A program made the position numbers and the translations under genes. 64,000 nucleotides of DNA from Nitrosopumilus sp. (GTDB lineage Archaea; Thermoproteota; Nitrososphaeria; Nitrososphaerales; Nitrosopumilaceae), in NCBI GenBank assembly GCA_965224195.1, contig OZ245040.1, positions 128,001-192,000 of the forward strand, read 5' to 3'. Positions 1,573 through 55,172 of this stretch are shown in pieces (position 1 is the stretch's first letter; each line of letters opens with the position of its first letter). A model generated the notes under the pieces. That model searched no databases and had not been told where the DNA came from. It saw nothing but the letters and a program-made list of their open reading frames with translations.

Positions 1573-4500
1573 ATGAAAACAAATAGTGTAGGATTATTCT
1601 TAGTGGCACTATTGTTAATTAGTTCAATACTTTCTCCTTCTATACAACAAGCATTTGCGGTTCTAGATGTTATTCTAAATGGAACAACAGAGACAATTAC
1701 ATCAGATGAAACTCATGGAAATCTTACTATTGAAAATAGTGCTACATTAATTGTACAAAGTGGAACAACACTAAGTCTTACTGGAATTTTAACTATTGAA
1801 AATGGTGGTAAATTAATTGTTGAAAATGATGCTAATATTGAATTAGTTGGTAATGATAACCTTAATGGTATTGTTAATCAAATTGGTGGAGACATTGATC
1901 AGTTTGGTACCATTACAAACGAAAATCCACTAACATTAATTTTGGTTAATCAAGGAAGCTGGATTGTGTTTTGTGGTATTTTAGAACTAAATGGTTTACA
2001 ATGGACAGGAACCCCTGCAACTTTTGAATGTATTGAAGAAATTATTCTCCCAATTACTGAAGTTCCTGAAGGAACTACATATGTTGTTGATGATCAAGGA
2101 GGAAAAATTGTAGTAATTGAAAATAATCTTCTCGTCAAAGGACTTTTACTTAATTCTGGTTTTCTGTCAAATAGGGCACTAATCACACTTGATGATTCTA
2201 TAGGTAGTGGAACAATTGATCTTTCTGGAGGTGGCACACTTCAAAATGTTTGTGGAAATTTCCTTACTAGAGGACTTACTGGATCTGGTGATGTAATGGG
2301 TGCTAACAACATTGTTCTTACTTGTAATTCACCTACTGCAAACGATGATAATTATTCTGTGGACGAAGATAATATTTTATCAGAACCATCTAATGGAATT
2401 TTATTTAATGATGTTCAAGCTGTAAATGAAAACATTCCTGGTGATGATCCAACATTATTTGCGTTATTACTTTCTACTCCTTCAAATGGTGTTGCATCAG
2501 TAAATATTGATGGTAGTTTTACTTATTCTCCAAGTCCTGAATTTTTTGGAAATGATTTTTTCAGTTATTCAATAGTTGATGGAAATGGAGGAATAGACTC
2601 TGCAACAGTGTTTATCACAATTAATTCTGTTAATGATTCTCCAACTGCAAATGATGATGTTGATTCTACTGATGAAGATACTCCAGTAACAATTCCTGTA
2701 CTAGACAATGATAGTGATCTTGAAAATGATCCACTTACAGTAACTGATTCTACTGATGGCTCTAATGGTTCTACTACTACAGATGGAACCACTGTAACTT
2801 ACACACCAAATGCGGACTTTTTTGGTTCTGATTCTTTTACATATACAATGACTGATGATGATGGTTCAGATTCTGCAACGGTAACAATTAATGTTGCTAT
2901 GATAAATGATCCACCTAAAGTTTCAATTATTTCTCCTCTTAACAATGATGCATTCTTAGTTGGTGAATCCATTACATTTGTTGGAAGTGCATTGGATACT
3001 GAGGACGGAATTTTATCATCTAACTTGGATTGGTTTTCTAACCTAGATGGTGCATTAGGTACTGGTGAATCACTAACTTTGTTAAATCTCTCAGAAGGAA
3101 TTCATAACATTCAAACTACAACATCTGATTCAAACGGATCTAGTGATACTGATTTTATTTCTATAACTGTACAAGTTGATCTCTCTACCATGGAATTCTG
3201 TGATAACAAAACAATTCATGAACTTGAGAAATATGCAAACAAAGGAAAATACAACTTGATTAATAATAGAAATGGTCCAAGTACTACTTTAACTGGTACT
3301 GATAAAGCTGATCTTATCTTTGCTGGCGACTTTGGTGATATAATTGAAGGAAAAGGCGGCAATGATTGTATCATCAGAGTTTGCAAATGATGATCTTTCT
3401 GGTGGTAGTGGTAATGATGAAATCTTTGGATTAAGCGGAGATGATCTTATTTTCGGTAATGCTGGAAATGATTTCTTAGATGGTGGTAGTGATAATGATA
3501 CAATTGAATCTGGTAAAGGTAATAACAAAATTTTAGCTGGTAGTGGCGATGATGAAGTTCTTGCTGGTAAAGGTAATGACAAGATAGATGGTGGTGCAGG
3601 TGATGATTTGATTGAAGGAAAAGGCGGTAATGATGAGATTAGAGGAGGCACTGGTGATGATGAAATCTTAGGTGGTGCCGGTAATGACAAGATAGATGGT
3701 GGTCCTGAAGAGGATGTTATTGAAGGAAACGGTGGCAATGACCACATCAAAGGTGGTGCAGGTGAAGACGACTTGAAAGGAAACGGTGGTAATGACAGAA
3801 TTGAAGGCGGCGATGACAATGATGTAATTTCTGGTGGTAATGGCGATGATGAAATCTTTGGTGGTAGTACTTACACTAGATATGACAAACATGATGATGA
3901 TAACGATGATTACAAAGACAAGAAACATGACAAAGACAAGAAACATGACAAAGACAAGAAACATGACAAAGACAAGAAACATGACAAAGACAAGAAACAT
4001 GACAAAGACAAGAAACATGACGATGAAAACAATGGAGATGATACCATCTCTGGAGGTGCCGGTAATGACAAGATATCTGGTGGAAATGGTGATGATATAA
4101 TTTCTGGTAATGGTGATAATGATAAAATAGATGGTGATAACGGTAATGACATAATTAAAGGCGGTGGAAGAAATGATCACATCAAAGGTGGTAACGGTGA
4201 TGATGATCTAAAAGGTGGTAACGGTGATGATCATGTTGACGGTGATGACGGTAATGATGTAATTGCTGGCGGTAAAGGTAATGATAAACTACATGGTAAA
4301 AATGGCAATGATATAATCAAAGGTGGCGCAGATAATGATGATCTAAAAGGTGGTAACGGTGATGATGATCTAAAAGGTAATGCTGGTAATGATAAACTCA
4401 ATGGTGAAAAAGGTATTGACATGTTAAACGGTGGTTCTGGCGAAGACAAATGTCATCAAGATGATGATGACACTGAAAAATTGTGAAAATGGAGATGGAA

Positions 4501-14688: not shown

Positions 14689-16617
14689 ATGACACTATCA
14701 GGGATAGAATTACGATATTTAGTTGATACAATTACAGAACAAGTCCAAGGATACTATATCAGCAACATTTATGGAATTACTAAAGATAGTATTCTTTTCA
14801 AACTTCATCATACAGAAAAAAGTGATCTTTTCATGATGATTTCAACATCAGGTGTTTGGTTAACTGCAGTAAAAATTGATCAAATGGAACCAAACAGATT
14901 ACTCAAAAGGTTGCGAAATGATCTACTCAGATTGAAATTAAAAAAAATTGAACAAATTGGTGCAGAGAGAATAGCATATTTTATTTTTGAAGGATTCGGA
15001 AAAGAGTTAGTTTTAGTAGGAGAATTTTTTGGAGATGGAAATATTTTACTATGTAACAATGAAATGAAAATTCTTGCATTACAGCATTCAATAGATGTTA
15101 GACATAGAAAACTAAGTGTAGGTTTAGAATATACTCAACCTCCTGTTAGTGGGTTAGATATTTTTGATTTGAAAGAATCCGACTTTGATGAACTTAGATC
15201 AACAGATTTAGTTGCCGCAAAATGGTTTGGAAGAACTTTGGGTTTACCAAAAAAGTATGTTGAAGCTGTTTTTGAAACTGCACAAATTGATGGAAAAAGG
15301 ATTGGGAATTTATTATCAGAAGAAGAAATAAAGAAAATTTTTGAAACCATAAAAAAGATTGTTTCAGATGTTGTATCTGGAAATCATGATGCTGTAATAG
15401 TTAGAAATGAAAAAACAGAAGTTCTTCCTTTAAAATTAGAAAAACTAGAAGGAGAAATAACACAGGCAAATAGTTTCATTGAAGGACTGGATACTGTATT
15501 CACTGAAAATATTATAGAAAAAGGAAAATTAGTACAATCAAGTGGGTCTGATAAAAAAATTAAAGAATTACAAACGCAAATCTCTGAACAGGAAAAAGCT
15601 ATTGAAACTGTAAAGGAAAGATCAAAAAACATAACAGATGTAGCAAATTCACTTTTTGAAATGGTATCAAAAGGAATTTTTTCAATTGAAGATATTTCTG
15701 CTCAGGAAATATTGACAACTCACAATGCAAAATTAGTTAGTGAAAAAGGAATTTCATTAATTGTTGTTCAAGATGAAAAAATAAAGATAAACACTCAATC
15801 TCCACTTCAATCAATTGCATCGGTGTTATTCAATGAAGCAAAAAAACAATCAGGTGCAATCTCTTCAATCCAATCAATTAAAGAGAAAACGGAGAAAAAA
15901 TTAGAAAAATTCCAAAACAAAACAGAATCTGAAAAAGATCTTTTTGTAGTTACAGAAATCAGAAAGAAAAGTTGGTACGAAAGATACAGATGGTTCTTTA
16001 CAACTGATGGTTATCTTACCGTAGGTGGAAGAGATGCTGCTTCAAACTCGGCTGTAGTAAGAAAACATTTAGTAAAAAATGATAAAATATTTCATGGTGA
16101 TATTTTTGGTTCACCGTTTTTTATTTTAAAAGATGCTGAACATGCACCTGATACAAGTATGAATGAAATTGCACATGCAACTGTATGCTTTAGCAGAGCT
16201 TGGAGAGAAGGACTGTATGGTGTAAGTGCTTATTGGATTCATCCTGATCAAGTAAAAAAATCTGCATCGAGTGGCGAATTTTTACCTAAAGGATCATTTA
16301 CTATTGAAGGACAAAGAAATTTTATAAAATCTGAAACTCTTAGACTAGCTGTAGGTATCATCAAACAAGATGATGATTATGTTTTAACATGCGGTCCTCC
16401 TGAACCAATTAAAAAATATTCTACATTGTATGCAATTATTGAACCACATGGTTCAGAAATGGCTGAAACAGCTAAAAAAATTAGAATTGAATTTTCTAAA
16501 TTGGAAGAAGAAATTGCAAAAAATATTCCTATAGATGATTATGTACGTGCATTACCAGCTGGAAAAAGCCAAATTATTAAAGTAGAATATGGTGATGCAA
16601 CTCTACTTCCTTTGTAA
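14689..16617 (+). CDS. rqcH: Ribosome quality control NFACT protein (Rqc2/RqcH/NEMF family)
   Basis: GEFFGDGNILL, WYERYRWFFTTDG..GGRDAASN, FHGDIFGSP, GEFLPKGSFTIEGQRN. Confidence 0.9.
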   Translation: MTLSGIELRYLVDTITEQVQGYYISNIYGITKDSILFKLHHTEKSDLFMMISTSGVWLTAVKIDQMEPNRLLKRLRNDLLRLKLKKIEQIGAERIAYFIFEGFGKELVLVGEFFGDGNILLCNNEMKILALQHSIDVRHRKLSVGLEYTQPPVSGLDIFDLKESDFDELRSTDLVAAKWFGRTLGLPKKYVEAVFETAQIDGKRIGNLLSEEEIKKIFETIKKIVSDVVSGNHDAVIVRNEKTEVLPLKLEKLEGEITQANSFIEGLDTVFTENIIEKGKLVQSSGSDKKIKELQTQISEQEKAIETVKERSKNITDVANSLFEMVSKGIFSIEDISAQEILTTHNAKLVSEKGISLIVVQDEKIKINTQSPLQSIASVLFNEAKKQSGAISSIQSIKEKTEKKLEKFQNKTESEKDLFVVTEIRKKSWYERYRWFFTTDGYLTVGGRDAASNSAVVRKHLVKNDKIFHGDIFGSPFFILKDAEHAPDTSMNEIAHATVCFSRAWREGLYGVSAYWIHPDQVKKSASSGEFLPKGSFTIEGQRNFIKSETLRLAVGIIKQDDDYVLTCGPPEPIKKYSTLYAIIEPHGSEMAETAKKIRIEFSKLEEEIAKNIPIDDYVRALPAGKSQIIKVEYGDATLLPL

Positions 16618-16637
16618 ATACTAAATATTTTTTTAGT

Positions 16638-17002
16638 TACAACACTACTCACTACAACACTACTCACTACAACACTACTCACTACAACACTACTCACTAC
16701 AACACTACTCACTACAACATTACTCACTACAACATTACTCACTACAACATTACTCACTACAACATTACTCACTACAACATTACTCACTACAACATTACTC
16801 ACTACAACATTACTCACTACAACACTACTCACTACAACATTACTCACTACAACACTACTCACTACAACATTACTCACTACAACATTACTCACTACAACAC
16901 TACTCACTACAACACTACTCACTACAACACTACTCACTACAACACTACTCACTACAACACTACTCACTACAACACTACTCACTACAACACTACTCACTAC
17001 AA
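16638..17002. repeat. Intergenic minisatellite, 24 x 15 bp TACAACAYTACTCAC
   Basis: Counted directly; variant order C5 T7 C T C T2 C7. Confidence 0.97.
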
Positions 17003-18362
17003 TATTTTATTTTTTTTTAAAAATTAAAATTTTTTTCCTACAAATTATCATCATAAATTACTATGATTCATTATTTTAGATTTAATTCCTGTATTTCCTC
17101 AAAAAATCAGAGATCCAAATTGGATCAAAGTATCATCTTAATGTCCATCATGGAATCAGTCTTTTAGGTACATTTCCACCTTCTTTATCGCTTTTTGTGA
17201 ATCATTTTTTGTTGGTGTAGAAGAAGATGAGGTGTTTACCTTAGACTATCTTTTGGATAGCATTGATGGGTTTTTGGATCCCCTAGAGAATTCTCTACAC
17301 CAAATTCTTGCAAATCAAATTCTACACCAAGAAATTTTTGCAAATATTTGTGTGGAGGATTTCTTTAATTGAAAGCTCTTCTATCTTTTATTGCAATTTT
17401 GTTGTTAACAACATCTAGCTTACCAGCTGGATTTGCAGACATTACACCAGTTGATTCATCAAATATTACATTAGTAGAACAACCAATTATACAAACAAGA
17501 AAAACAATTTCTATAAATCTTGACGAAATTGTAGGATTATCAACTGATACACCAAAGAAAAATGAAATTCAAAATACAACTTTTTTCATTGCATATAACA
17601 CATCAAAAATAATTCATCTTGATGAAGATCTATCTATGAAATCATCAACACATGATCAAAAAGTTCATTATGATTATGTTACAATACAACCACAACCAAC
17701 AGTTGAAAGAATTTTACAAACAGACAAACTTTGTGATGATCGAAAAAAGAATCTTAAAGTTGATTTACTTAATTTTGATGATTTAGATCAACAAAAATCT
17801 GATAATTTAATTTCAATTGATTCCACAATTTTACAAACAACCTTTTTTGCTGATCCCTTTAATCTTGTTTTTAATCTTATATCTGAACAAAATCTTTTAG
17901 AATTTGTAAATATTTTTGAAGAACAATCTATTACAAATATTTATAATTCTGTTTCAAATTTTGATCCATCTTTTCTTTTTGATAATTCTTTTGTTGTTGT
18001 TATATTTGCTCCACTTGTTTTCTTTTTGTTTATTTTTGCTGAGGATGTTAAATTTAAATTTGAAAAAGTTCGTCCTTTCCTTTCTTTTATTTTCATTGTA
18101 ATTATTTTATCAACCGTTGTTGTAACACCTTACTCTGTTTCATCTGTATATTGGCCTGAAGCTTATGCTGATACTGATAACATGGATGAATCAATTTATG
18201 ATAACACAACTGCCTCAACAGATAACATCTCATCTTCTTCTACACCAGCTGAAGATACAGAAACTGTTGAGGATTCAACCTCTGTTCACACTGATGCCTC
18301 AGTAGGCTCAACCTCATCTTCTTCTACACCAGCCGAAGATACCGAGTCTACTGAGGTTTCAT

Positions 18363-18690
18363 CTACAAACAGTACAGCAACTGAAGTTATTCCTACAAAC
18401 AGTACAGCAACTGAAGTTATTCCTACAAACAGTACAGCAACTGAAGTTATTCCTACAAACAGTACTACAACCGACATCATTCCAGTCAACGGTACAGTCA
18501 TCCCAGGCACAAACTCCACTGACATCATTCCAGTCAACGGTACCATTTGTAGGATTGAGAAAGTCAGAATCTGTAAAGCCACAAACTCCACTGACATCAT
18601 TCCAGTCAACGGTACAGTCATCCCAGGCACAAACTCCACTGACATCATTCCAGTCAACGGCACAGTCATCCCAGGTACAAATAGTACTAT
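18363..18690 (+). repeat. Coding tandem repeats: 30 bp (TNSTATEVIP) x3 and 48 bp (TNSTDIIPVNGTVIPG) array
   Basis: Visible in DNA and in translation; N-glycosylation sequon rich. Confidence 0.9.
18508..18615. other. 36-bp direct repeat / 36-bp foreign insert / 36-bp direct repeat
   Basis: cacaaactccactgacatcattccagtcaacggtac at 18508-18543 and 18580-18615 flanks catttgtaggattgagaaagtcagaatctgtaaagc. Confidence 0.85.
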
Positions 18691-18875
18691 AGTCATCGTT
18701 CCTAATGCTACTGAATCATGGTCATTTGACACTCAGATTAACGGTTCCAGATTCATAGGAGATGTCTACATTGAGGAGAGTGATTCCAGCCTAATTTTAG
18801 ATGGTGATGGTTATCTTTCAAATGATGGTAATTCAACAAGTGATTTATCCAATATCTCAGTCACCGCTTGGGTTA

Positions 18876-19572
18876 ATCCTGATTCATTCATGAAATTATT
18901 GGGTTATGCGAGAATCTATTTTGGACTGCCATTCAGACAAACAGAAGGAATGATTCGTGCATATTGTAATAGAATTCCAGCAGTTCCTGATTTTACACCA
19001 GTCCACAAGAGAGTAGACAAGCTTGACATCAAAATTGATAATTCCATTGGAGATAACAATGAAATCATTTTAGCAATTATAGTACAGGAATCAAGGTTAC
19101 AAACAGATGCGACAGAAATGGTACATGAGAAGAGGGTTTCTAAAAATCCATGTTGGTGCTGATGCCAGAACTAGTACAACAAGCATTGTATAAAGGAAAT
19201 GCAGTCAAGGTACTGGCTGATGGTGCATATGATTCAGAAAACAACTTCTCATATCTGTACCACAATACAGATGCACTACCTGCAATCAAAGTAAGAAAGA
19301 CATCATCTCTCAAAACAAAATGTTATCCGAGAAGGAAATCAGTTTTGGCTCAGATATTTAATTATGAACTGTGGAGGCGCAGCGTTAGCTATGGGGACAG
19401 ATGGATTGTAGAGTGTGCGTTTTCAGCGTTTGAGAGAATGTTTGGCAATATGTCACGGCTCACAAGAGAAAATACATGGTAAAGGAATTAAAATTAAAAG
19501 CCGGGCTGTACGATATGCTTGCAGGTGTTTGAGGGAATGAAATTAGTTGGAAATGATTTGTTCGACAGAGTA
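18876..19572 (+). mobile_element. Degenerate 5'-truncated copy of the IS5-family element at 21889-22880
   Basis: SFMKLLGYARIYFGLPFRQTEG and LADGAYDSENNF match the intact copy; ends in TIR atttgttcgacagagta; internal deletions and frameshifts. Confidence 0.9.
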
Positions 19573-23508: not shown

Positions 23509-23858
23509 AGAACTGATGTATAGAGAAGTTATATTTTTGGTTATGGTACTAATGGATTCAAATGACTCTCTTCTAGTTCTTCAAGATAGCCCTTGATTTC
23601 TTTGCCACAGAATTTGGCTTTGGAATTACCCTTATTGTTACTACAGTCTTCAACGGTTTGTTTGTAAACAATGGACTAAACATGGTAGTTTTTTGGATTA
23701 GACACAAATTCATCAAAAATGGGCATAATTTGCACCCATTTTTAGAAATTTTTTAAGTTTCAATTTATTTCATAATAATTAAAATTTCTTTTTTAGGCTC
23801 ATCATAAATTTTTATGGATTTTAACAATGTACCATTCTTTGAAAATTCTTCATGTATT

Positions 23859-24927
23859 AGATGAGTTGCGTAATTACAAACAGAAATCTAACTTTTCTGT
23901 CATTTAATTCTTAATTTTATGGAATTGCAATGAATTCTTCTTTCCATTTAATCTTGAAATTGACAGTCCCACAAACAATTTCACTTGTCACATCATATCT
24001 GCATAATTTGTTTCTAAACACATCGCGATTTATCCGAAATTGCCTGACTTGTGCAATAGCATGTTCAACTTTTATTCTAATTTTTGACTGCATCTTGTTC
24101 CACTCCTTTTGAGTAACAGTCAATTTTTTTCCTTTCTTTTTCTTGTATGGCAAAACACTTGCCTGTTCTGGAAAGTCTTTTTCCATCCCCAAATATCCAA
24201 GATCATAAGACTGCGACAACCCTTCAGACAATGTTGGATGCTTTGATTTGTAAATTCTGTAATCATGATGGCTGCCAGGCGAATGTGCAGATTTGTGGAT
24301 TGTTATCCCATCAAGATTTATGGCGATTTGATTTTGTACTGCATGTTTTTTCTTTTTGCCTGAATGGTGTGTCTTTCTTTTCTTTTTGTTTTTTGGTCTT
24401 GGGATGGGCTGTTATGTGCCATCAGTGATTGCAATTAATTCCGGAAAGAATTCTTGCAATTCCTGCATGCTGTTAATCTTTTTTGAATCTGCATATTTTT
24501 TGGCAGGAATTATAATGGATTGCTTCACTGCAGGCTCCAAACATCTGATGTTTCTCATTACGTTTGGTTTGTCCAAATCAAATGTCATCCCTGGCATATC
24601 ATATGTTGTGTACATTCTGTAGTACATGAAAAACATTAGAATTCTGCCTTTGAAGGACAAGTCAAACTTGTGTCCTGCACCAATGTCTCTTTCTCTATTT
24701 TTGGACAATCCCTTTTGTTCTGCAGTTTTGCAATTTTTCTTTATTTCTTTGTATAGGGAATCAAACTGTGGAACAGTTAGTCCTGCTATTGACAGGAATT
24801 GTTTTGGTTTTTTTGCCAGTTTTGCGTAATTAAACATGAATTGAAAATAATTCAGTCTTAGCTTTGGATCTTATGATTAGAAAATGTTGAGATTATGCTC
24901 AAATTGGACTAGTTGCACAACTCATCT
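23859..24927 (-). mobile_element. IS5-family (DDE_Tnp_4, ISL2-like) element copy 1, 1069 bp, transposase inactivated by nonsense codon
   Basis: TIRs AGATGAGTTG...CAACTCATCT; ORFs 24412-24837 and 23917-24231 are one frame broken by TAA after DGT. Confidence 0.92.
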
Positions 24928-24985
24928 AGTATTATCGTCATGGATTTATCAGAAATTTTCAATAAATTTTGGTTTTTTTAAATTA

Positions 24986-26113: not shown

Positions 26114-26590
26114 TTAATCACTGTATACTTCGTTTTTCTTTTTATTGAATTTGTTGTATCCTTCTTTGTCATAACCCAGGTGATTATATCCTAGCCCATC
26201 ATACCCATTACTATCAAACCCATCTTCATCATACCCGTCTAAATCAAACCCATCTTTGTCGTACCCTCCTAGGTCATACCCATTTTTGTTAAACCCATCT
26301 TTATCAAAAGCAATTTTTGTATCAATGTGAATTCCATCTATAGAAAACCCCCGATTATCAAACCCATCTTTGTCGTATCCATTTTTGTAGTATCCTTTTT
26401 TGTTAAACCCATCTTTATTGTAACCCTTGAAATCGAATCCATCTTCATCATACCCGTCTTTGTATCCTTTTTTGTCATACCCATTTTTGTCATAACCATT
26501 TTTGCCATAACCATTTTTGCCATAACCATTTTTGCCATAACCATCTAGGTCATATCCATGCTTGTCATACGTATGACTAAATCTATCCAA
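26114..26590 (-). CDS. G[YF][DN]xx pentapeptide-repeat protein
   Basis: GYDKD/GFNKN repeats; 15-bp DNA repeats. Confidence 0.75.
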   Translation of the reverse strand: MDRFSHTYDKHGYDLDGYGKNGYGKNGYGKNGYDKNGYDKKGYKDGYDEDGFDFKGYNKDGFNKKGYYKNGYDKDGFDNRGFSIDGIHIDTKIAFDKDGFNKNGYDLGGYDKDGFDLDGYDEDGFDSNGYDGLGYNHLGYDKEGYNKFNKKKNEVYSD

Positions 26591-26686: not shown

Positions 26687-27755
26687 AGATGAGTTGTGCA
26701 ACTAGTCCAATTTGAGCATAATCTCAACATTTTCTAATCATAAGATCCAAAGCTAAGACTGAATTATTTTCAATTCATGTTTAATTACGCAAAACTGGCA
26801 AAAAAACCAAAACAATTCCTGTCAATAGCAGGACTAACTGTTCCACAGTTTGATTCCCTATACAAAGAAATAAAGAAAAATTGCAAAACTGCAGAACAAA
26901 AGGGATTGTCCAAAAATAGAGAAAGAGACATTGGTGCAGGACACAAGTTTGACTTGTCCTTCAAAGGCAGAATTCTAATGTTTTTCATGTACTACAGAAT
27001 GTACACAACATATGATATGCCAGGGATGACATTTGATTTGGACAAACCAAACGTAATGAGAAACATCAGATGTTTGGAGCCTGCAGTGAAGCAATCCATT
27101 ATAATTCCTGCCAAAAAATATGCAGATTCAAAAAAGATTAACAGCATGCAGGAATTGCAAGAATTCTTTCCGGAATTAATTGCAATCACTGATGGCACAT
27201 AACAGCCCATCCCAAGACCAAAAAACAAAAAGAAAAGAAAGACACACCATTCAGGCAAAAAGAAAAAACATGCAGTACAAAATCAAATCGCCATAAATCT
27301 TGATGGGATAACAATCCACAAATCTGCACATTCGCCTGGCAGCCATCATGATTACAGAATTTACAAATCAAAGCATCCAACATTGTCTGAAGGGTTGTCG
27401 CAGTCTTATGATCTTGGATATTTGGGGATGGAAAAAGACTTTCCAGAACAGGCAAGTGTTTTGCCATACAAGAAAAAGAAAGGAAAAAAATTGACTGTTA
27501 CTCAAAAGGAGTGGAACAAGATGCAGTCAAAAATTAGAATAAAAGTTGAACATGCTATTGCACAAGTCAGGCAATTTCGGATAAATCGCGATGTGTTTAG
27601 AAACAAATTATGCAGATATGATGTGACAAGTGAAATTGTTTGTGGGACTGTCAATTTCAAGATTAAATGGAAAGAAGAATTCATTGCAATTCCATAAAAT
27701 TAAGAATTAAATGACAGAAAAGTTAGATTTCTGTTTGTAATTACGCAACTCATCT
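26687..27755 (+). mobile_element. IS5-family (DDE_Tnp_4) element copy 2, 1069 bp, 3-bp TSD AGA, same nonsense codon as copy 1
   Basis: Reverse complement of copy 1 with identical translations; TAA at 27200-27202; aga flanks both ends. Confidence 0.93.
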
Positions 27756-27822
27756 AGAGTTTACACTCTAAACATATTGTCAAACAATTCATTCTCAGGA
27801 ACAAGAATTGGCTATTCTGAGA

Positions 27823-45066: not shown

Positions 45067-45885
45067 TTGTTGAGATTAACAGGTAAAATTGCTCTAGTAA
45101 CTGGTGGAAGTCGTGGAATAGGATTAGCAACTGCAAAAATCCTATCAGAAAATGGTACGACAGTAGCAATTACTGCAAAAGACAAAGACAGATTAGAAAA
45201 TGCAGTAAAAGAGATTCCTAATGCTATAGGTATTGCAGGTAACATTAGAAATTCAAAAGATGTAAAAAATGTTGTAAATAAAATAATTGAAAAATTTGGT
45301 AAATTAGATATTCTTGTAAATAATGCTGGAATCTTTCCCAAAATAAAACAATTACACGAAATTGATGAAGATGAATGGAATGAGGTATTAGATGTAAATC
45401 TCACAGGACAGTATAGATTTACCAAGGAAGCAATTCCTTATTTACAGAAAACATCTGGTTCAATAATTAACATTTCATCAGATGCTGGAATAAAGGCATA
45501 TCAAGGATTTAATGCAGACGCATATTCTGCATCAAAAGCTGCGTTGATTTTATTAACAAAATGTTGGGCATTAGAATACTCTAAAGATAAGATCAGAGTT
45601 AATTGCATTTGTCCAGAGGACTTGTCCTGCATCGAATCAAGCAGGGTGGTAGCCTAAAGATAAGATCAGAGTTAATTGCATTTGTCCAGGGTAGTGGATA
45701 CAGATATGACAAAACCATTTTTGAAGACTGAAAAAGACAAGGAATTCATAAATGGTGAACATCCTATTGGTAGGATTGGACAACCTAGTGAAGTTGGAAA
45801 AGCAGTTTTGTATTTTGCCTCAGACGATGCATTATGGACAACAGGTGCAATATTGACTGTAGATGGAGGGGAATCAATTAAATGA
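45067..45885 (+). pseudogene. SDR family oxidoreductase disrupted by a duplication-plus-insert
   Basis: TGGSRGIG, NNAG, YSASK; C-terminal VVDTDM..HPIGRIG..VDGG separated by a 73-bp insertion and a 1-nt loss. Confidence 0.9.
45581..45689. other. 36-bp direct repeat / 37-bp foreign insert / 36-bp direct repeat
   Basis: ctaaagataagatcagagttaattgcatttgtccag at 45581-45616 and 45654-45689 flanks aggacttgtcctgcatcgaatcaagcagggtggtagc. Confidence 0.92.
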
Positions 45886-53214: not shown

Positions 53215-54273
53215 AGATGAGTTGTGCAATTAGTCCAATTTGAGTATAATCTCAACATTTTCTAATCATAAGATCCAAAGCTAAGGCTGAATTATTTTCA
53301 ATTCATGTTTAATTGCACAAAACTGGCAAAAAAACCAAAACAATTCCTGTCAATAGCAGGACTAACTGTTCCACAATTTGATTCCCTATACAACGAAATA
53401 AAGAAAAATTGCAAAACTGCAGAACAAAAGGGACTGTCCAAAAACAGAGAAAGAGACATTGGTGCAGGACACAAGTTTGACTTGTCCTTCAAAGGCAGAA
53501 TTCTAATGTTTTTCATGTACTACAGAATGTACACAACATATGACATGCCAGGGATGACATTTGATTTGGACAAACCAAACGTAATGAGAAACATCGGATG
53601 TTTGGAGCCTGCAGTGAAGCAGTCCATATAATTGCTGCCAAAAAATATGCAGATTCAAAAGAGATTAACGGCATGCAGGAATTCTTTCCGGAATTAGTTG
53701 CAATCACTGATGGCACAGAACAGCCCATCCCAAGACCAAAAAACAAAAAGAAAAGAAAGGCACGCCATTCAGGCAAAAAGAAAAAGCATGCAGTACAAAA
53801 TCAAGTCGCCATAAATCCTGATGGGATAACAATCCACAAATCTGCACATTCGCCTGGCAGCCATCATGATTACAGAATTTACAAATCAAAGCATCCAACA
53901 TTATCTGAAAGGTTGCTGCAGTTTTATGATCCTGGATGTTTGGGGACGGAAAAAGACTTTCCAGAACAGGCAAGTGTTTTGCCATGCAAGAAAAAGAAAG
54001 GAAAAAAATTGACTGTTGCTCAAAAGGAGTGGAACAAGATGCAGTCAAAAATTAGAATAAAAGTTGGACGTGTCATTGCACAAATCAGGCAATTTCGGAT
54101 AAATCGCGATGTGTTTAGAAACAAATTATGCAGATATGATGTGATAAGTGAAATTGTTTGTGGGACTGTCAGTTTCAAGATTAAATGGAAAGAAGAATTC
54201 ATTGCAATTCCATAAAATTAAGAATTAAATGACAGAAAAGTTAGATTTTTGCTTGTAATTGCGCAACTCATCT
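53215..54273 (+). mobile_element. IS5-family (DDE_Tnp_4) element copy 3, 1059 bp, frameshifted
   Basis: Same TIRs; retains GAA at the site of the nonsense codon but has 1-nt and 9-nt deletions. Confidence 0.92.
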
Positions 54274-55172
54274 ATTATACATCATATATATTCTAAATCT
54301 TCTTTTTTAGATTTGCGACTTGTTTTTCCAAAGATGTGATTCTTTTTTCTAATTTTGTGACTACTTTGGCTGCTCTTTTTTCTAATTTGGCCAGTCTACG
54401 TTCCTGTTACTGCTCATGTTGTTTGTCAGTCAGTTTTACCATGAATAATTTATGGATATTTTGAACTTAAGAGTATTGTAAAACAAAAAGCAATCAAAAC
54501 AAGGACATGAATGGAATCAAAAATTCCACTAGTCTCTGCCAAAAACTCCTGCAATTGATAGCATCTCCTCGTTGTATTAGTTATGTCAAAATCGTATTTA
54601 ATGATGATCTTAATTTTGAGAATAATGATAAAAATTGAAACTTAAGACCAACAACGATTAGTTACTTGGTGAGAGTTTCAATAGTTTTAGTTTGAAAATA
54701 TAGTATTTAGATCGTACTGAGAAATTCTACTAATCAATCCTACCTGTTCCTTTTATTGTAAATTACTCTAGTGTCATTACAAGTTATTTGTTATACCAGT
54801 CCAGAGGTTGGGTAAATTTGGCCCAATCTTTTCATTTTAAATCTAGTACTGACAATTACAATCAGCTACAAAGCAATACTAGCTATCAAAATTACAAAAA
54901 ATTACGAAGTAAATTCCAAATTGTACTAGAATAATTTACGAACAAACAGCTACAAAATCACACTTGTCAAAGATTGAACTGCCATACAACACTCTTTTGT
55001 TACAATTTACACAAATATCATCTTGTGTTAATTTGTCAAGGATTGTAATGGATTGTCAAATGGTATGCCCATGATATCGTGAAATTTTCACTAATGGACA
55101 GTCAATTAGACGGTCAATGTCTAACAGTAGGTGTGATAATGGGGTAACCGAAAACTCTAAGAATGAAAAATA

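What the first reader, a model, noticed from the sequence alone, without database searches (positions are those of the whole stretch)
45581..45689. Repeat-spacer-repeat scar in an SDR gene: candidate natural off-target CRISPR spacer integration (neo-CRISPR), event 1
Seen: a 37-bp insert (21/37 GC, far above the local level) sits between two exact 36-bp copies of the gene's own coding sequence and kills the gene. A second, unrelated event of the same geometry is at 18508-18615 (36/36/36), and both inserts end in AGC on the + strand. Established: Cas1-Cas2 integrates prespacers of about 30-40 bp by staggered attack that duplicates a repeat-length target, and off-target integration producing neo-arrays has been shown experimentally in E. 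coli. IS TSDs are much shorter and slippage does not import foreign DNA. Inference: a promiscuous Cas1-type integrase (CRISPR adaptation module or casposase-related) encoded elsewhere is writing spacer-sized DNA into housekeeping loci, and the scars are fixed. Two in 64 kb predicts many genome-wide, acting as an array-independent memory or a mutagenic force.
Basis: partly seen in the sequence, partly recalled or inferred. Interest (0 to 1): 0.9.

Follow-up and report, generated by a model that had tools for sequence, protein, structure and literature searches.

The report
Stray CRISPR spacer insertions across genome
A marine ammonia-oxidising archaeon (Nitrosopumilus) carries dozens of scars where its own CRISPR spacer-insertion enzymes appear to have pasted spacer-sized DNA into ordinary genes instead of the CRISPR array, and one such scar broke the dehydrogenase gene in this window.

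Summary
Window 45581-45616 and 45654-45689 are identical 36-bp copies of SDR coding sequence around a 37-bp insert. Ten relatives carry one copy, no insert and an open frame. Unitigs from two runs hold both junctions at flank depth.

It is one of about 33-41 scars of the same geometry in this 2.06-Mb Nitrosopumilus genome. That geometry equals the genome's own CRISPR unit. There are three arrays (repeats 36, 30 and 37 bp; spacers about 36 bp), each beside an intact cas1-cas2 (type I-G and two I-B).

Inserts are unrelated to each other. Seven of 33 are copies of other chromosomal loci, against 0 of 288 array spacers. A second species with only type I-G has about 23-26 scars in 1.6 Mb. An I-B-only species has 2 in 0.4 Mb, at its own array period. 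A genome with no Cas1 hit has 0 in 0.8 Mb. Target sites share a motif resembling the spacer-side end of the I-G repeat.

Verdict: natural off-target Cas1-Cas2 integration, abundant and mutagenic. No scar has grown into an array, so "memory" is unsupported.

The parts
45581..45616 (+). copy 1 of the duplicated 36-bp target (SDR coding sequence)
   Evidence: 100% identical to 45654-45689; relatives have this sequence once
45617..45653 (+). 37-bp spacer-like insert, copied from a multicopy mobile element of the same chromosome
   Evidence: 36/37 identical to G000:C1:1512390-1512426 and 34/37 to 794137-794173, both inside a ~230-aa PD-(D/E)XK gene of an element with at least 7 copies; absent from relatives; extra unitig depth here comes from the donor copies
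45654..45689 (+). copy 2 of the duplicated target; read one base out of frame, it supplies in-frame stops (TAA at 45655-45657)
45680..45691 (-). match to the target-site motif (C.C[TA]|G[TC][TA][GA][CG]AA[TA]) shared by scars of two species
   Evidence: held-out PWM score 7.0, above the 95th percentile (6.16) of random sites; the motif lies 2 nt inside the duplication
45067..45657 (+). truncated SDR gene, N-terminal part
   Evidence: ORF; adh_short E 4e-55, profile 1-180/195
45691..45885 (+). SDR gene, C-terminal remainder; one base is missing at its start compared with relatives
   Evidence: adh_short_C2 175-234/236; relatives read ...CCAGGNGTAGT..., an extra base after 45690
18508..18543 (+). 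event 2, copy 1 of the duplicated 36-bp target inside a 48-bp tandem-repeat gene
18544..18579 (+). event 2, 36-bp insert of unknown origin
   Evidence: no match in self, phages, viral contigs or metagenome contigs
18580..18615 (+). event 2, copy 2 of the target
   Evidence: neighbouring repeat units (e.g. 18628-18663) are uninterrupted
17369..19162 (+). 597-aa repeat-rich ORF that carries event 2 as an in-frame 72-nt insertion

Best explanation
The scar is the product of one full-site spacer integration by the organism's own CRISPR adaptation complex at a non-CRISPR site. A Cas1-Cas2 complex, most likely the type I-G Cas4/Cas1 fusion with Cas2, carried a 37-nt prespacer cut from a multicopy mobile element. 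It attacked the two strands of the SDR gene 36 bp apart, which is the spacing it uses on its 36-bp repeat. Gap repair then duplicated the 36-bp target on both sides of the insert. The site was probably chosen because one end weakly resembles the spacer-side end of the repeat (...ATTGAAGC). The same reaction has happened about 33-41 times in this chromosome and comparably often in a second species. Because the new 'repeats' are ordinary gene sequence, they are presumably not processed into crRNA. That would make self-derived inserts harmless and leave the scars as neutral or deleterious mutations. Shown: the geometry, the empty sites, the donors, the cas genes, the comparative pattern and the motif. 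Inferred: the enzyme identity, the order of steps and the lack of crRNA processing.
For: Geometry. The finding is dup 36 / insert 37. Across 33 core scars the dup is 34-39 nt and start-to-start spacing 70-76, mode 72-73. Array A1 has a 36-bp repeat with period 72 (30) or 73 (31) of 89. Array A3 has a 37-bp repeat with period 72 (38) or 73 (40) of 131.

Peak. 25 of 29 non-multiple-of-3 hits fall at offsets 70-76.

Machinery. There are 3 Cas1 and 3 Cas2 genes with no internal stops, one pair beside each array. They type as I-G Cas4g/Cas1g (714.7 bits, cut-off 560) with Cas3g and Csb1/2, I-B and I-B with Cas1b at 436 bits. No mismatched repeat was found in A1 (90 repeats) or A3 (132), which suggests young arrays.

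Real DNA. Unitig depth at the junctions is 407 and 397 against flanks of 415-486 in X18, and 111 and 110 against 104-108 in X19.

Empty site. 10 of 11 relatives' loci examined have one target copy and no insert.

Inserts. They are mutually unrelated and none equals an array spacer. Mean G+C is 0.404, like array spacers (0.40-0.42) and unlike the genome (0.336). 7 of 33 have near-full-length donors elsewhere in the chromosome, against 0 of 288 array spacers (Fisher p 6.5e-8).

Comparative pattern. G118 has only an I-G Cas1 and a 164-repeat array. It has 23 core scars plus 3 shorter ones in 1.6 Mb. 17 of its 21 non-multiple-of-3 hits are at 70-76, and its offsets mirror its own array periods of 71-76. 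4 of its 26 inserts are self-derived, against 0 of 163 array spacers. G087 (I-B only) has 2 scars in 0.4 Mb, both at d=71, its own array mode. G002 has no hit to the Cas4/Cas1 profile and 0 scars in 0.8 Mb; 12.8 would be expected at G000's density.

Target motif. C at -2 in 18/30 (p 1e-6) and A at +6 in 23/30 (p 2e-6). The 26 held-out sites score above random (p 6.5e-4).

Insert ends. They resemble array-spacer ends: T first in 26/56, C last in only 6/56, C at -4 in 18/56.

Published biochemistry. Off-target integration at repeat-like sites occurs in vitro (PMC6698737, passages). Spacer-side integration by I-G Cas4/1-Cas2 is the less specific step (PMC10504553, passages).
Against: No experiment links any Cas1 to these scars; the link is geometric and comparative. 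In G000 the I-G and the 37-bp I-B systems have the same period, so the responsible module cannot be assigned per event. The two G087 scars show that I-B can probably do it as well.

Whole-length similarity of targets to the repeat is weak (G000 p 0.0035, G118 p 0.18), and the motif is degenerate. Donor flanks of 6-7 G000 and 4 G118 self-derived inserts show no consistent PAM. That is unexpected if Cas4 selected the prespacers.

Duplication length varies (32-39 nt, and a few events of 43-53 nt). G118 has two events with 31-32-nt duplications although no 30-bp-repeat array was seen in the fetched part.

The negative control G002 has a very different G+C (0.52), and only 0.8 of its 2.2 Mb was scanned. 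Only 0.42 Mb of G087 was scanned. The runs that hold the junctions may be the data the assembly was built from, so they exclude a mis-join but are not an independent isolate.
Confidence: 0.88

Rival explanations
1. The scars are functional neo-CRISPR units: each repeat-spacer-repeat is transcribed and used as an array-independent immune memory or regulator, and can grow into new arrays.
For: The scars have the repeat-spacer-repeat form. Nivala et al. 2018 reportedly saw off-target sites grow into neo-arrays in E. coli; I know this only through citing papers. One MGE-borne repeat mimic at G000:C1:1626224-1626330 has a spacer and a partial second repeat.
Against: 0 of 56 scars in two genomes has a third copy of its target, apart from event 2's tandem-repeat paralogs. 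The duplicated sequences are arbitrary gene sequence and lack the repeat's hairpin. 7 of 33 and 4 of 26 inserts target the host's own chromosome, which would be autoimmune if they were used. 13 of 41 scars break ORFs. No RNA data were available (one search lists no RNA run).
Confidence: 0.05
2. Another enzyme makes the scars, for example an integrase or nuclease of the abundant mobile elements in these genomes (IS copies, the PD-(D/E)XK element) or a casposase-like Cas1, and it only coincidentally matches the CRISPR geometry.
For: G000 is rich in mobile elements: an IS of ~1.07 kb with at least 25 copies, and the donor element with at least 7 copies. Casposase-like Cas1 hits exist in other genomes of the genus. 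The hotspot at 882-923 kb is rich in mobile elements.
Against: G000 has only three Cas1 hits, all in cas operons. The inserts share no sequence, so they are not one element. Scar spacing tracks each genome's own array period: 72-73 in G000, 71-76 in G118, 71 in G087. Insert ends share the array-spacer signature. Casposon and IS target duplications are much shorter; this is recalled knowledge, not tested here.
Confidence: 0.05
3. Assembly, polishing or library artefact (chimeric reads, adapter or barcode insertion).
For: Exact duplications next to short foreign inserts can in principle come from chimeric amplification. The runs that hold the junctions may be the assembly's own data (note).
Against: Junction unitigs sit at full flank depth in two runs. 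13 of 41 events have 1-3 mismatches between the two copies, i.e. they have aged. The inserts match chromosomal loci of the same organism, not adapters. The same pattern appears in two other independently assembled species and not in a fourth.
Confidence: 0.01

Closest known systems
Off-target ('non-canonical') spacer integration and neo-CRISPR formation by type I-E Cas1-Cas2 in E. coli (Nivala, Shipman and Church 2018; the paper was not held; known here only from citing passages and from recall)
   Same: Spacer-length DNA is inserted at a non-CRISPR chromosomal site with duplication of a repeat-length target. Sites resemble features of the natural integration site. It is described as potentially deleterious.
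   Different: That work used overexpressed Cas1-Cas2 in a laboratory strain, and natural evidence was called 'circumstantial ... in two other species' (10.1101/148544, passage). Here the events are fixed in natural archaeal genomes, number tens per genome, involve type I-G and I-B systems without IHF, sit inside genes, and none has grown into an array.
In vitro off-target integration by Pyrococcus furiosus Cas1-Cas2 (PMC6698737; passages read)
   Same: An archaeal Cas1-Cas2 integrates at non-CRISPR sites that share sequence features with the repeat. Repeat-end motifs plus spacing define the two attack sites.
   Different: That is a plasmid assay with purified proteins; this is chromosomal, heritable and seen across species. 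The motif found here resembles the spacer-side end of the I-G repeat.
Type I-G Cas4/Cas1-Cas2 adaptation (PMC10504553; passages read)
   Same: The same protein family (a Cas4/Cas1 fusion over the NCBIfam cut-off). The repeat ends in ...ATTGAAGC, like the M. barkeri repeat quoted there. The spacer-side reaction is reported as less specific, with products at nonspecific locations.
   Different: The paper reports PAM-dependent, oriented integration into a leader-repeat plasmid. The self-derived scar inserts here show no consistent PAM.
Ectopic spacer acquisition inside arrays (PMC7999890; search listing and abstract start only)
   Same: Integration away from the leader-proximal repeat.
   Different: Ectopic events still use genuine repeats within an array; the scars here use ordinary gene sequence.
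Casposon integration by family 1 casposase of Ca. Nitrosopumilus koreensis (PMC8464041; search listing and abstract start only)
   Same: A Cas1-family integrase acting in the same genus and generating target duplications.
   Different: Casposons are kilobase elements with their own casposase and a specific target. G000 has no casposase-like Cas1, and the inserts here are 34-40 nt and all different.

Membership tests
Off-target Cas1-Cas2 spacer integration scar | Target duplication of about the length of the organism's CRISPR repeat | tested here: met
   Finding: 36 bp, against A1 repeat 36 and A3 repeat 37. 33 core scars: 34-39 bp.
Off-target Cas1-Cas2 spacer integration scar | Insert of spacer length, heterogeneous in sequence | tested here: met
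   37 bp, against array spacers of mode 36-37. No insert-to-insert match longer than 11 nt among the 43 inserts compared.
Off-target Cas1-Cas2 spacer integration scar | Intact cas1 and cas2 in the same genome | tested here: met
   3 Cas1 and 3 Cas2, no internal stops, each pair next to an array.
Off-target Cas1-Cas2 spacer integration scar | Empty site (one target copy, no insert) in relatives | tested here: met
   10 of 11 relatives' loci examined; empty-site joints in low-depth relatives in X19 and X1. Tested for the finding's event only; event 2 has no usable ortholog.
Off-target Cas1-Cas2 spacer integration scar | Insert is a copy of a protospacer elsewhere (mobile element, virus or self) | tested here: met
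   36/37 match to a multicopy element. 7 of 33 G000 and 4 of 26 G118 inserts have donors. The rest have no known donor.
Off-target Cas1-Cas2 spacer integration scar | Target sites resemble the natural integration site | tested here: met
   The motif resembles the spacer-side end of the I-G repeat and is cross-validated (p 6.5e-4). It is degenerate, and whole-length similarity is weak.
Off-target Cas1-Cas2 spacer integration scar | Dependence on Cas1-Cas2 activity | tested here: inconclusive
   Comparative only: 0 scars in 0.8 Mb of a genome with no Cas1 hit, against 14-16 per Mb in two I-G genomes and 5 per Mb in an I-B genome. No experiment was possible.
Off-target Cas1-Cas2 spacer integration scar | PAM next to the protospacer (expected if Cas4 selected the prespacer) | tested here: not met
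   No consistent trinucleotide beside 6-7 G000 donors or 4 G118 donors, in either orientation. The sample is small and several systems are involved.
Bona fide CRISPR array / growing neo-CRISPR array | Three or more repeats, a leader, and repeats shared with a Cas6/crRNA system | tested here: not met
   Two copies only. 0 of 56 scars has a genuine third copy. The repeats are SDR coding sequence.
MITE / IS insertion with target-site duplication | Multicopy insert with conserved ends | tested here: not met
   The inserts are all different. The finding's insert matches an internal gene segment of its donor, not an element end.
Slippage / tandem duplication | The inserted material is a copy of adjacent sequence | tested here: not met
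   The insert is unrelated to its flanks. Best internal periodicity is 0.40 for the finding, against 0.6 or more for true tandem repeats.

The most novel reading that the evidence does not exclude
In Nitrosopumilus, CRISPR adaptation modules (type I-G Cas4/Cas1-Cas2 above all, and probably I-B too) are a pervasive natural mutagen. About one stray chromosomal integration is retained for every 6-9 array spacers (33-41 against 288 in G000; 26 against 163 in G118). These integrations knock out or lengthen genes and leave an unselected fossil record of what the adaptation machinery captures, self DNA included, before interference purges it. The scars would then give a direct, sequence-only readout of naive prespacer choice and integrase target preference in uncultured archaea. 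They would also put a measurable cost on keeping CRISPR adaptation switched on. Repeat mimics carried by a multicopy mobile element, one of which has itself gained a spacer, may be decoys or seeds in the same process.
Probability: 0.6. Interest if true: 0.88.

Novelty: new variant of a known kind. Interest (0 to 1): 0.8.

Why it matters
Off-target spacer integration has been shown with overexpressed E. coli Cas1-Cas2 and in vitro. Whether it matters in nature has stayed open: one citing preprint calls the natural evidence circumstantial.

Here it is abundant, heritable and gene-breaking in at least two, probably three, species of a globally important group of marine nitrifiers. It also tracks the presence and the geometry of each genome's own CRISPR system.

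This gives three things:
- A concrete fitness cost of CRISPR adaptation. That bears on why many lineages lose or silence cas1-cas2.
- A natural data set of unselected acquisitions (self against foreign, end processing, target motif) for type I-G and I-B systems that are hard to study in culture.
- A simple sequence signature (repeat-length duplication plus spacer-length insert at the genome's own array period) that can be searched for in any genome.

It also warns annotators that two-repeat 'questionable CRISPRs' inside genes can be real integration scars and not noise.

Tried and rejected
Whole-length similarity of the duplicated targets to the I-G or I-B repeat is weak (G000 against A1 p 0.0035, G118 p 0.18, G000 against A3 p 0.2). 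A symmetric half-site profile was nearly flat. Only orientation by the first duplicated base exposed the motif.

I found no consistent PAM among the donors of self-derived inserts, in either orientation, so I could not assign events to a module by PAM.

Proximity to arrays is at most a weak trend: 7 events within 30 kb against 4.0 expected (p 0.09), and 19 within 100 kb against 12.3 (p 0.02).

The origin of event 2's insert is unknown. There was no match in self, in GenBank phages (one search gave the same result for the finding's insert), in viral contigs (exact 36-mer) or in metagenome contigs (exact 36-mer). An exact-match scan misses diverged donors.

The empty site of event 2 could not be tested. 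Only 2 of the 40 relatives searched matched, with short low-identity pieces.

Rows dropped before counts:
- 18 of 59 candidate loci at offsets 66-82 were flagged tandem (internal periodicity 0.6 or more).
- Event 690211 (d 76, 2 mismatches, insert matching 4 paralogous places) was left out of the 33 'core' events.
- Eight atypical events are counted in the 41 but not in the 33: 778950, 798295, 912673, 923061, 1129506, 1228750, 1619794 and 1911472. Their duplications are 30 or 42-57 nt, or d is 66.
- In G118, 5 tandem rows and the two near-tandem rows 1030798 and 1030900 were dropped. Three events with d 66-68 are reported separately.

Events with 30-nt duplications in G000 (912673, 1228750) fit array A2's 30-bp repeat. 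However, G118 has 31-32-nt events without such an array in the fetched part, so I make no attribution.

Papers. Nivala et al. 2018 was not held; what I say of it comes from citing passages and recall, and its supplements and any natural-genome tables were not seen.
Full report
**1. The observation**

Window 45581-45616 and 45654-45689 are identical 36-nt direct repeats with a 37-nt insert between them. The repeats are coding sequence of a short-chain dehydrogenase. The upstream ORF (45067-45657) matches Pfam adh_short over profile positions 1-180 of 195 (E 4e-55). The stretch 45691-45885 matches adh_short_C2 positions 175-234 of 236. Copy 2 is read one base out of register and supplies a TAA at 45655-45657, so the gene is broken.

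The insert has 20/37 G+C, against 0.336 for the genome.

The second event named in the finding (18508/18544/18580; 36/36/36) is equally exact. It adds 72 nt in frame to a repeat-rich 597-aa ORF, which stays open.

**2. It is real DNA and a derived state**

The window is G000:C1:128001-192000 of a 2.07-Mb, two-contig genome.

A search of 40 relatives found the SDR gene in 28 of them. In the best hits the two halves of the query align to overlapping coordinates. A local alignment of 11 relatives' loci shows the following:
- In 10 of them (L008-L017) there is one copy of the target, no insert, and the frame ...TGT CCA GGN GTA GTN GAT....
- The eleventh (G009) has a different rearrangement at the same place.

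G000 also lacks one base just right of copy 2. I cannot say whether that happened at integration or later.

Logan unitigs of two runs labelled with one organism (X18, X19) carry the left junction (45587-45646) and the right junction (45618-45683). Their depths are 407 and 397 in X18, and 111 and 110 in X19. These equal the flank depths (415-486 in X18; 104-108 in X19).

A low-depth, diverged relative in X19 and a marine metagenome (X1) carry the empty-site joint, with the extra bases GA or GT. The bridging unitigs have 30 letters on their shorter side, one short of the tool's 31-letter rule. These runs may also be the assembly's own data. They therefore exclude a mis-join, but they are not an independent isolate.

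**3. It is one of many**

An exact-repeat scan found 47 isolated pairs of 25 nt or more. Of these, 28 have start-to-start spacing 71-75.

A mismatch-tolerant scan (at least 32 of 34 matches, every offset 40-130, arrays masked) gives hits at multiples of three (coding tandem repeats) and otherwise almost only at 70-76:

| Offset | Hits |
|---|---|
| 70 | 2 |
| 71 | 4 |
| 73 | 11 |
| 74 | 6 |
| 76 | 2 |
| All 56 other non-multiple-of-3 offsets together | 4 |

This gives binomial p 1e-23.

After removing 18 tandem loci from 59 candidates, 41 events remain. Of these, 33 are 'core' (duplication 34-39 nt, spacing 70-76).

Of the 41, the two copies are identical in 28, differ at one position in 10 and at two or three positions in 3. 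The events are therefore of different ages.

**4. The geometry is that of the genome's own CRISPR systems**

G000 has three arrays:

| Array | Repeats | Repeat length | Commonest period | Type | Evidence for type |
|---|---|---|---|---|---|
| A1 | 90 | 36 bp | 72 (30) and 73 (31) of 89 | I-G | Cas4g/Cas1g fusion 714.7 bits (cut-off 560), Cas3g, Csb2, Csb1 |
| A2 | 69 | 30 bp | 66 and 67 | I-B | Cas1b 436 bits, Cas4, Cas6, Cas3, Cas5b, Cas7 |
| A3 | 132 | 37 bp | 72 (38) and 73 (40) of 131 | I-B-like | Cas7/Csh2, Cas5b, Cas3, Cas1, Cas2, Cas4 |

Each array lies next to an uninterrupted cas1-cas2. Record titles of close relatives place the genus as Nitrosopumilus.

Mean G+C of array spacers is 0.40-0.42, and of the core inserts 0.404.

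**5. What the inserts are**

- The 43 inserts compared share nothing with each other beyond 11 nt, and none equals an array spacer. They are not a transposable family.
- Seven of the 33 core inserts are near-full-length copies of other places in the same chromosome.
- The finding's insert is 36/37 identical to C1:1512390-1512426 and 34/37 identical to 794137-794173.
- Both of these lie inside a ~230-aa PD-(D/E)XK nuclease gene. That gene belongs to an element present in at least seven copies.
- Among the 288 array spacers, only one 18-nt partial self-match was found.
- The contrast, 7 of 33 against 0 of 288 (Fisher p 6.5e-8), is what one expects if array spacers against self are purged by interference and stray inserts are never used.

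**6. Other genomes**

The I-G Cas4/Cas1 fusion is over its curated cut-off in 10 of the 121 genus genomes searched. I compared three relatives:

| Genome | Cas1 content | DNA scanned | Scars found |
|---|---|---|---|
| G118 | I-G only; 164-repeat, 36-bp array, periods 71-76 | 1.6 of 1.87 Mb | 23 core (d 71-76) plus 3 with d 66-68 |
| G087 | only an A3-like I-B Cas1; 36-bp repeat, period 70 (10), 71 (33), 72 (19) | 0.40 Mb, plus 20 kb for the array | 2 clean scars, 37/34 and 36/35, both d=71 |
| G002 | no hit to the Cas4/Cas1 profile | 0.8 Mb | 0 (12.8 expected at G000's density, Poisson 3e-6) |

In G118, hits at non-multiple-of-3 offsets were 71: 4, 73: 6, 74: 6 and 76: 1, against 4 hits at all other such offsets. 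Four of its 26 inserts are copies of other loci, against 0 of its 163 array spacers.

Caveats: G002's G+C is 0.52, unlike the others, and both G087 and G002 were only partly scanned.

**7. Target choice**

I pooled 56 sites (33 from G000, 23 from G118) and oriented the 30 whose first duplicated base is G (or whose last is C). Enrichment appears at positions not used for the orientation:

| Position | Base | Count | p |
|---|---|---|---|
| -4 | C | 15/30 | 1e-5 |
| -2 | C | 18/30 | 1e-6 |
| +2 | T | 17/30 | 8e-4 |
| +6 | A | 23/30 | 2e-6 |
| +7 | A | 18/30 | 1e-3 |

The null was matched random sites. The consensus G-Y-W-R-S-A-A-W resembles GCTTCAAT. That is the reverse complement of the ...ATTGAAGC end of the I-G repeat, i.e. 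its spacer-side end.

A weight matrix built from these 30 sites scores the 26 held-out sites above random (mean 3.81 against 1.71, p 6.5e-4). The motif usually lies 1-2 nt inside the duplication. The finding's own site scores 7.0, above the 95th percentile of the null at 6.16.

This fits published work. Off-target sites of P. furiosus Cas1-Cas2 share features with the repeat (PMC6698737). For I-G Cas4/1-Cas2, the spacer-side reaction is the less specific step (PMC10504553).

Oriented by this motif, the inserts start with T in 26 of 56, have G at +3 in 23 of 56 (p 5e-5) and C at -4 in 18 of 56, and end in C in only 6 of 56. Array spacers show the same T-first, C-at-(-3/-4), C-poor-last pattern. 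So 'AGC' at the end of the two window inserts is a coincidence.

**8. Consequences**

Of the 41 events, 13 break an ORF of 100 aa or more that reappears when the scar is removed in silico. Another 12 are tolerated in-frame insertions, and 16 are intergenic or unclear.

Eight events lie within 41 kb (882-923 kb; p 0.0006). This stretch is richer in repeated elements (17% repeated elsewhere) and poorer in long ORFs (0.76 against a mean of 0.85). It is probably an island where insertions are tolerated.

No scar has a genuine third copy of its target, so I see no growth into arrays.

**9. Explanation and rivals**

The best explanation is off-target full-site integration by the organism's own Cas1-Cas2. 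The type I-G Cas4/Cas1-Cas2 is the most likely agent for this event, for three reasons: the 36-bp duplication, the I-G-like motif, and the I-G-only species showing the same density. The two G087 scars suggest that I-B modules do it as well.

Three things are not shown: enzyme dependence, the order of the two attacks, and the absence of crRNA processing.

The rivals each fail at least one test. They are functional neo-CRISPR memory, another integrase, and an artefact. Details are in the rival and membership sections.

**10. Comparison with what is known**

The kind of event is known from E. coli with overexpressed Cas1-Cas2 and from in vitro assays. Nivala et al. 2018 was not held. According to a citing preprint, natural evidence was 'circumstantial' in two species.

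My six literature searches listed no report of abundant, gene-breaking natural scars, or of any in Nitrosopumilus or for type I-G. The library is incomplete, and supplements were closed.

I therefore rate it a new variant of a known kind. The chemistry is the same. The setting is new (natural, archaeal, I-G and I-B) and so is the scale (about one scar per 6-9 array spacers). It also has a new use, as an unselected record of adaptation.

**11. Limits**

- Only one scar was checked against reads and against relatives.
- Two of the three comparison genomes were partly scanned.
- Per-event assignment to a module is not possible in G000.
- No PAM emerged.

Noticed in passing
G000:C1 about 1512.85-1513.05 kb, 790.4-790.65 kb, 793.5-793.8 kb and 1626.1-1626.33 kb (outside the window): Every printed copy of the multicopy PD-(D/E)XK element that donated the finding's insert carries a conserved block of about 200 bp with solitary CRISPR-repeat mimics. 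One resembles the 3' part of the A2 repeat. One is an I-G-like repeat with a different stem. One is close to the A1 repeat. In the 1626-kb copy the last mimic is a full repeat followed by a 39-nt spacer and a partial second repeat, i.e. a spacer acquired at a repeat carried by a mobile element. These could be decoys, anti-CRISPR RNA genes or seeds of arrays.
   Followed up: partly
L018 = G009:C1:737184-740539 (relative): In G009, which also has a type I-G system, the same SDR gene is disrupted at the same position (right after ...TGTCCCGGA). The disruption is an inversion of about 158 bp (G009:C1:739034-739192 aligns in reverse). It is a second independent lesion at the same site.
   Followed up: no
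window 45690-45691: G000 lacks one base here compared with all relatives and with metagenome contigs. With the 73-nt scar this makes a net +72, so the downstream SDR part is back in the upstream frame, although stops in copy 2 still end translation. It may be a repair error at integration, or it may be coincidence.
   Followed up: partly
window about 23858-24928, 26687-27760 and 53215-54274 (G000:C1:151858-152928, 154687-155760, 181215-182274): Three copies of an IS-like element of ~1.07 kb that has at least 25 copies at 95-98% identity across the chromosome. An IS6-family transposase also lies in the I-B cas region.
   Followed up: no
G000:C1:882000-924000 (outside the window): A hotspot of 8 scars in 41 kb (p 0.0006). 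It is rich in mobile elements and has fewer long ORFs than average. In G118 similar clusters occur at 1503-1519 kb (4 scars) and 1335-1340 kb (3 scars).
   Followed up: partly
window 3400-4430, 16548-17087, 18170-18711 and 26162-26580: There are several long coding tandem-repeat tracts with periods 15, 18, 27/54, 30, 48 and 84. They are typical of repeat-rich surface or acidic proteins. They account for the multiple-of-3 background in the offset scans.
   Followed up: no
G002 (relative, L120-L159): The tool lists G002 as the same genus, but its G+C is 0.52 against 0.32-0.36 for G000, G118 and G087. This makes it an imperfect negative control.
   Followed up: no
genus-wide: Many genomes of the genus carry Cas1-like ORFs of about 410-450 aa that score 110-130 bits against the Cas1 part of the I-G profile, several per genome (e.g. 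G048, G100, G109). They are probably casposases. G000 has none.
   Followed up: no
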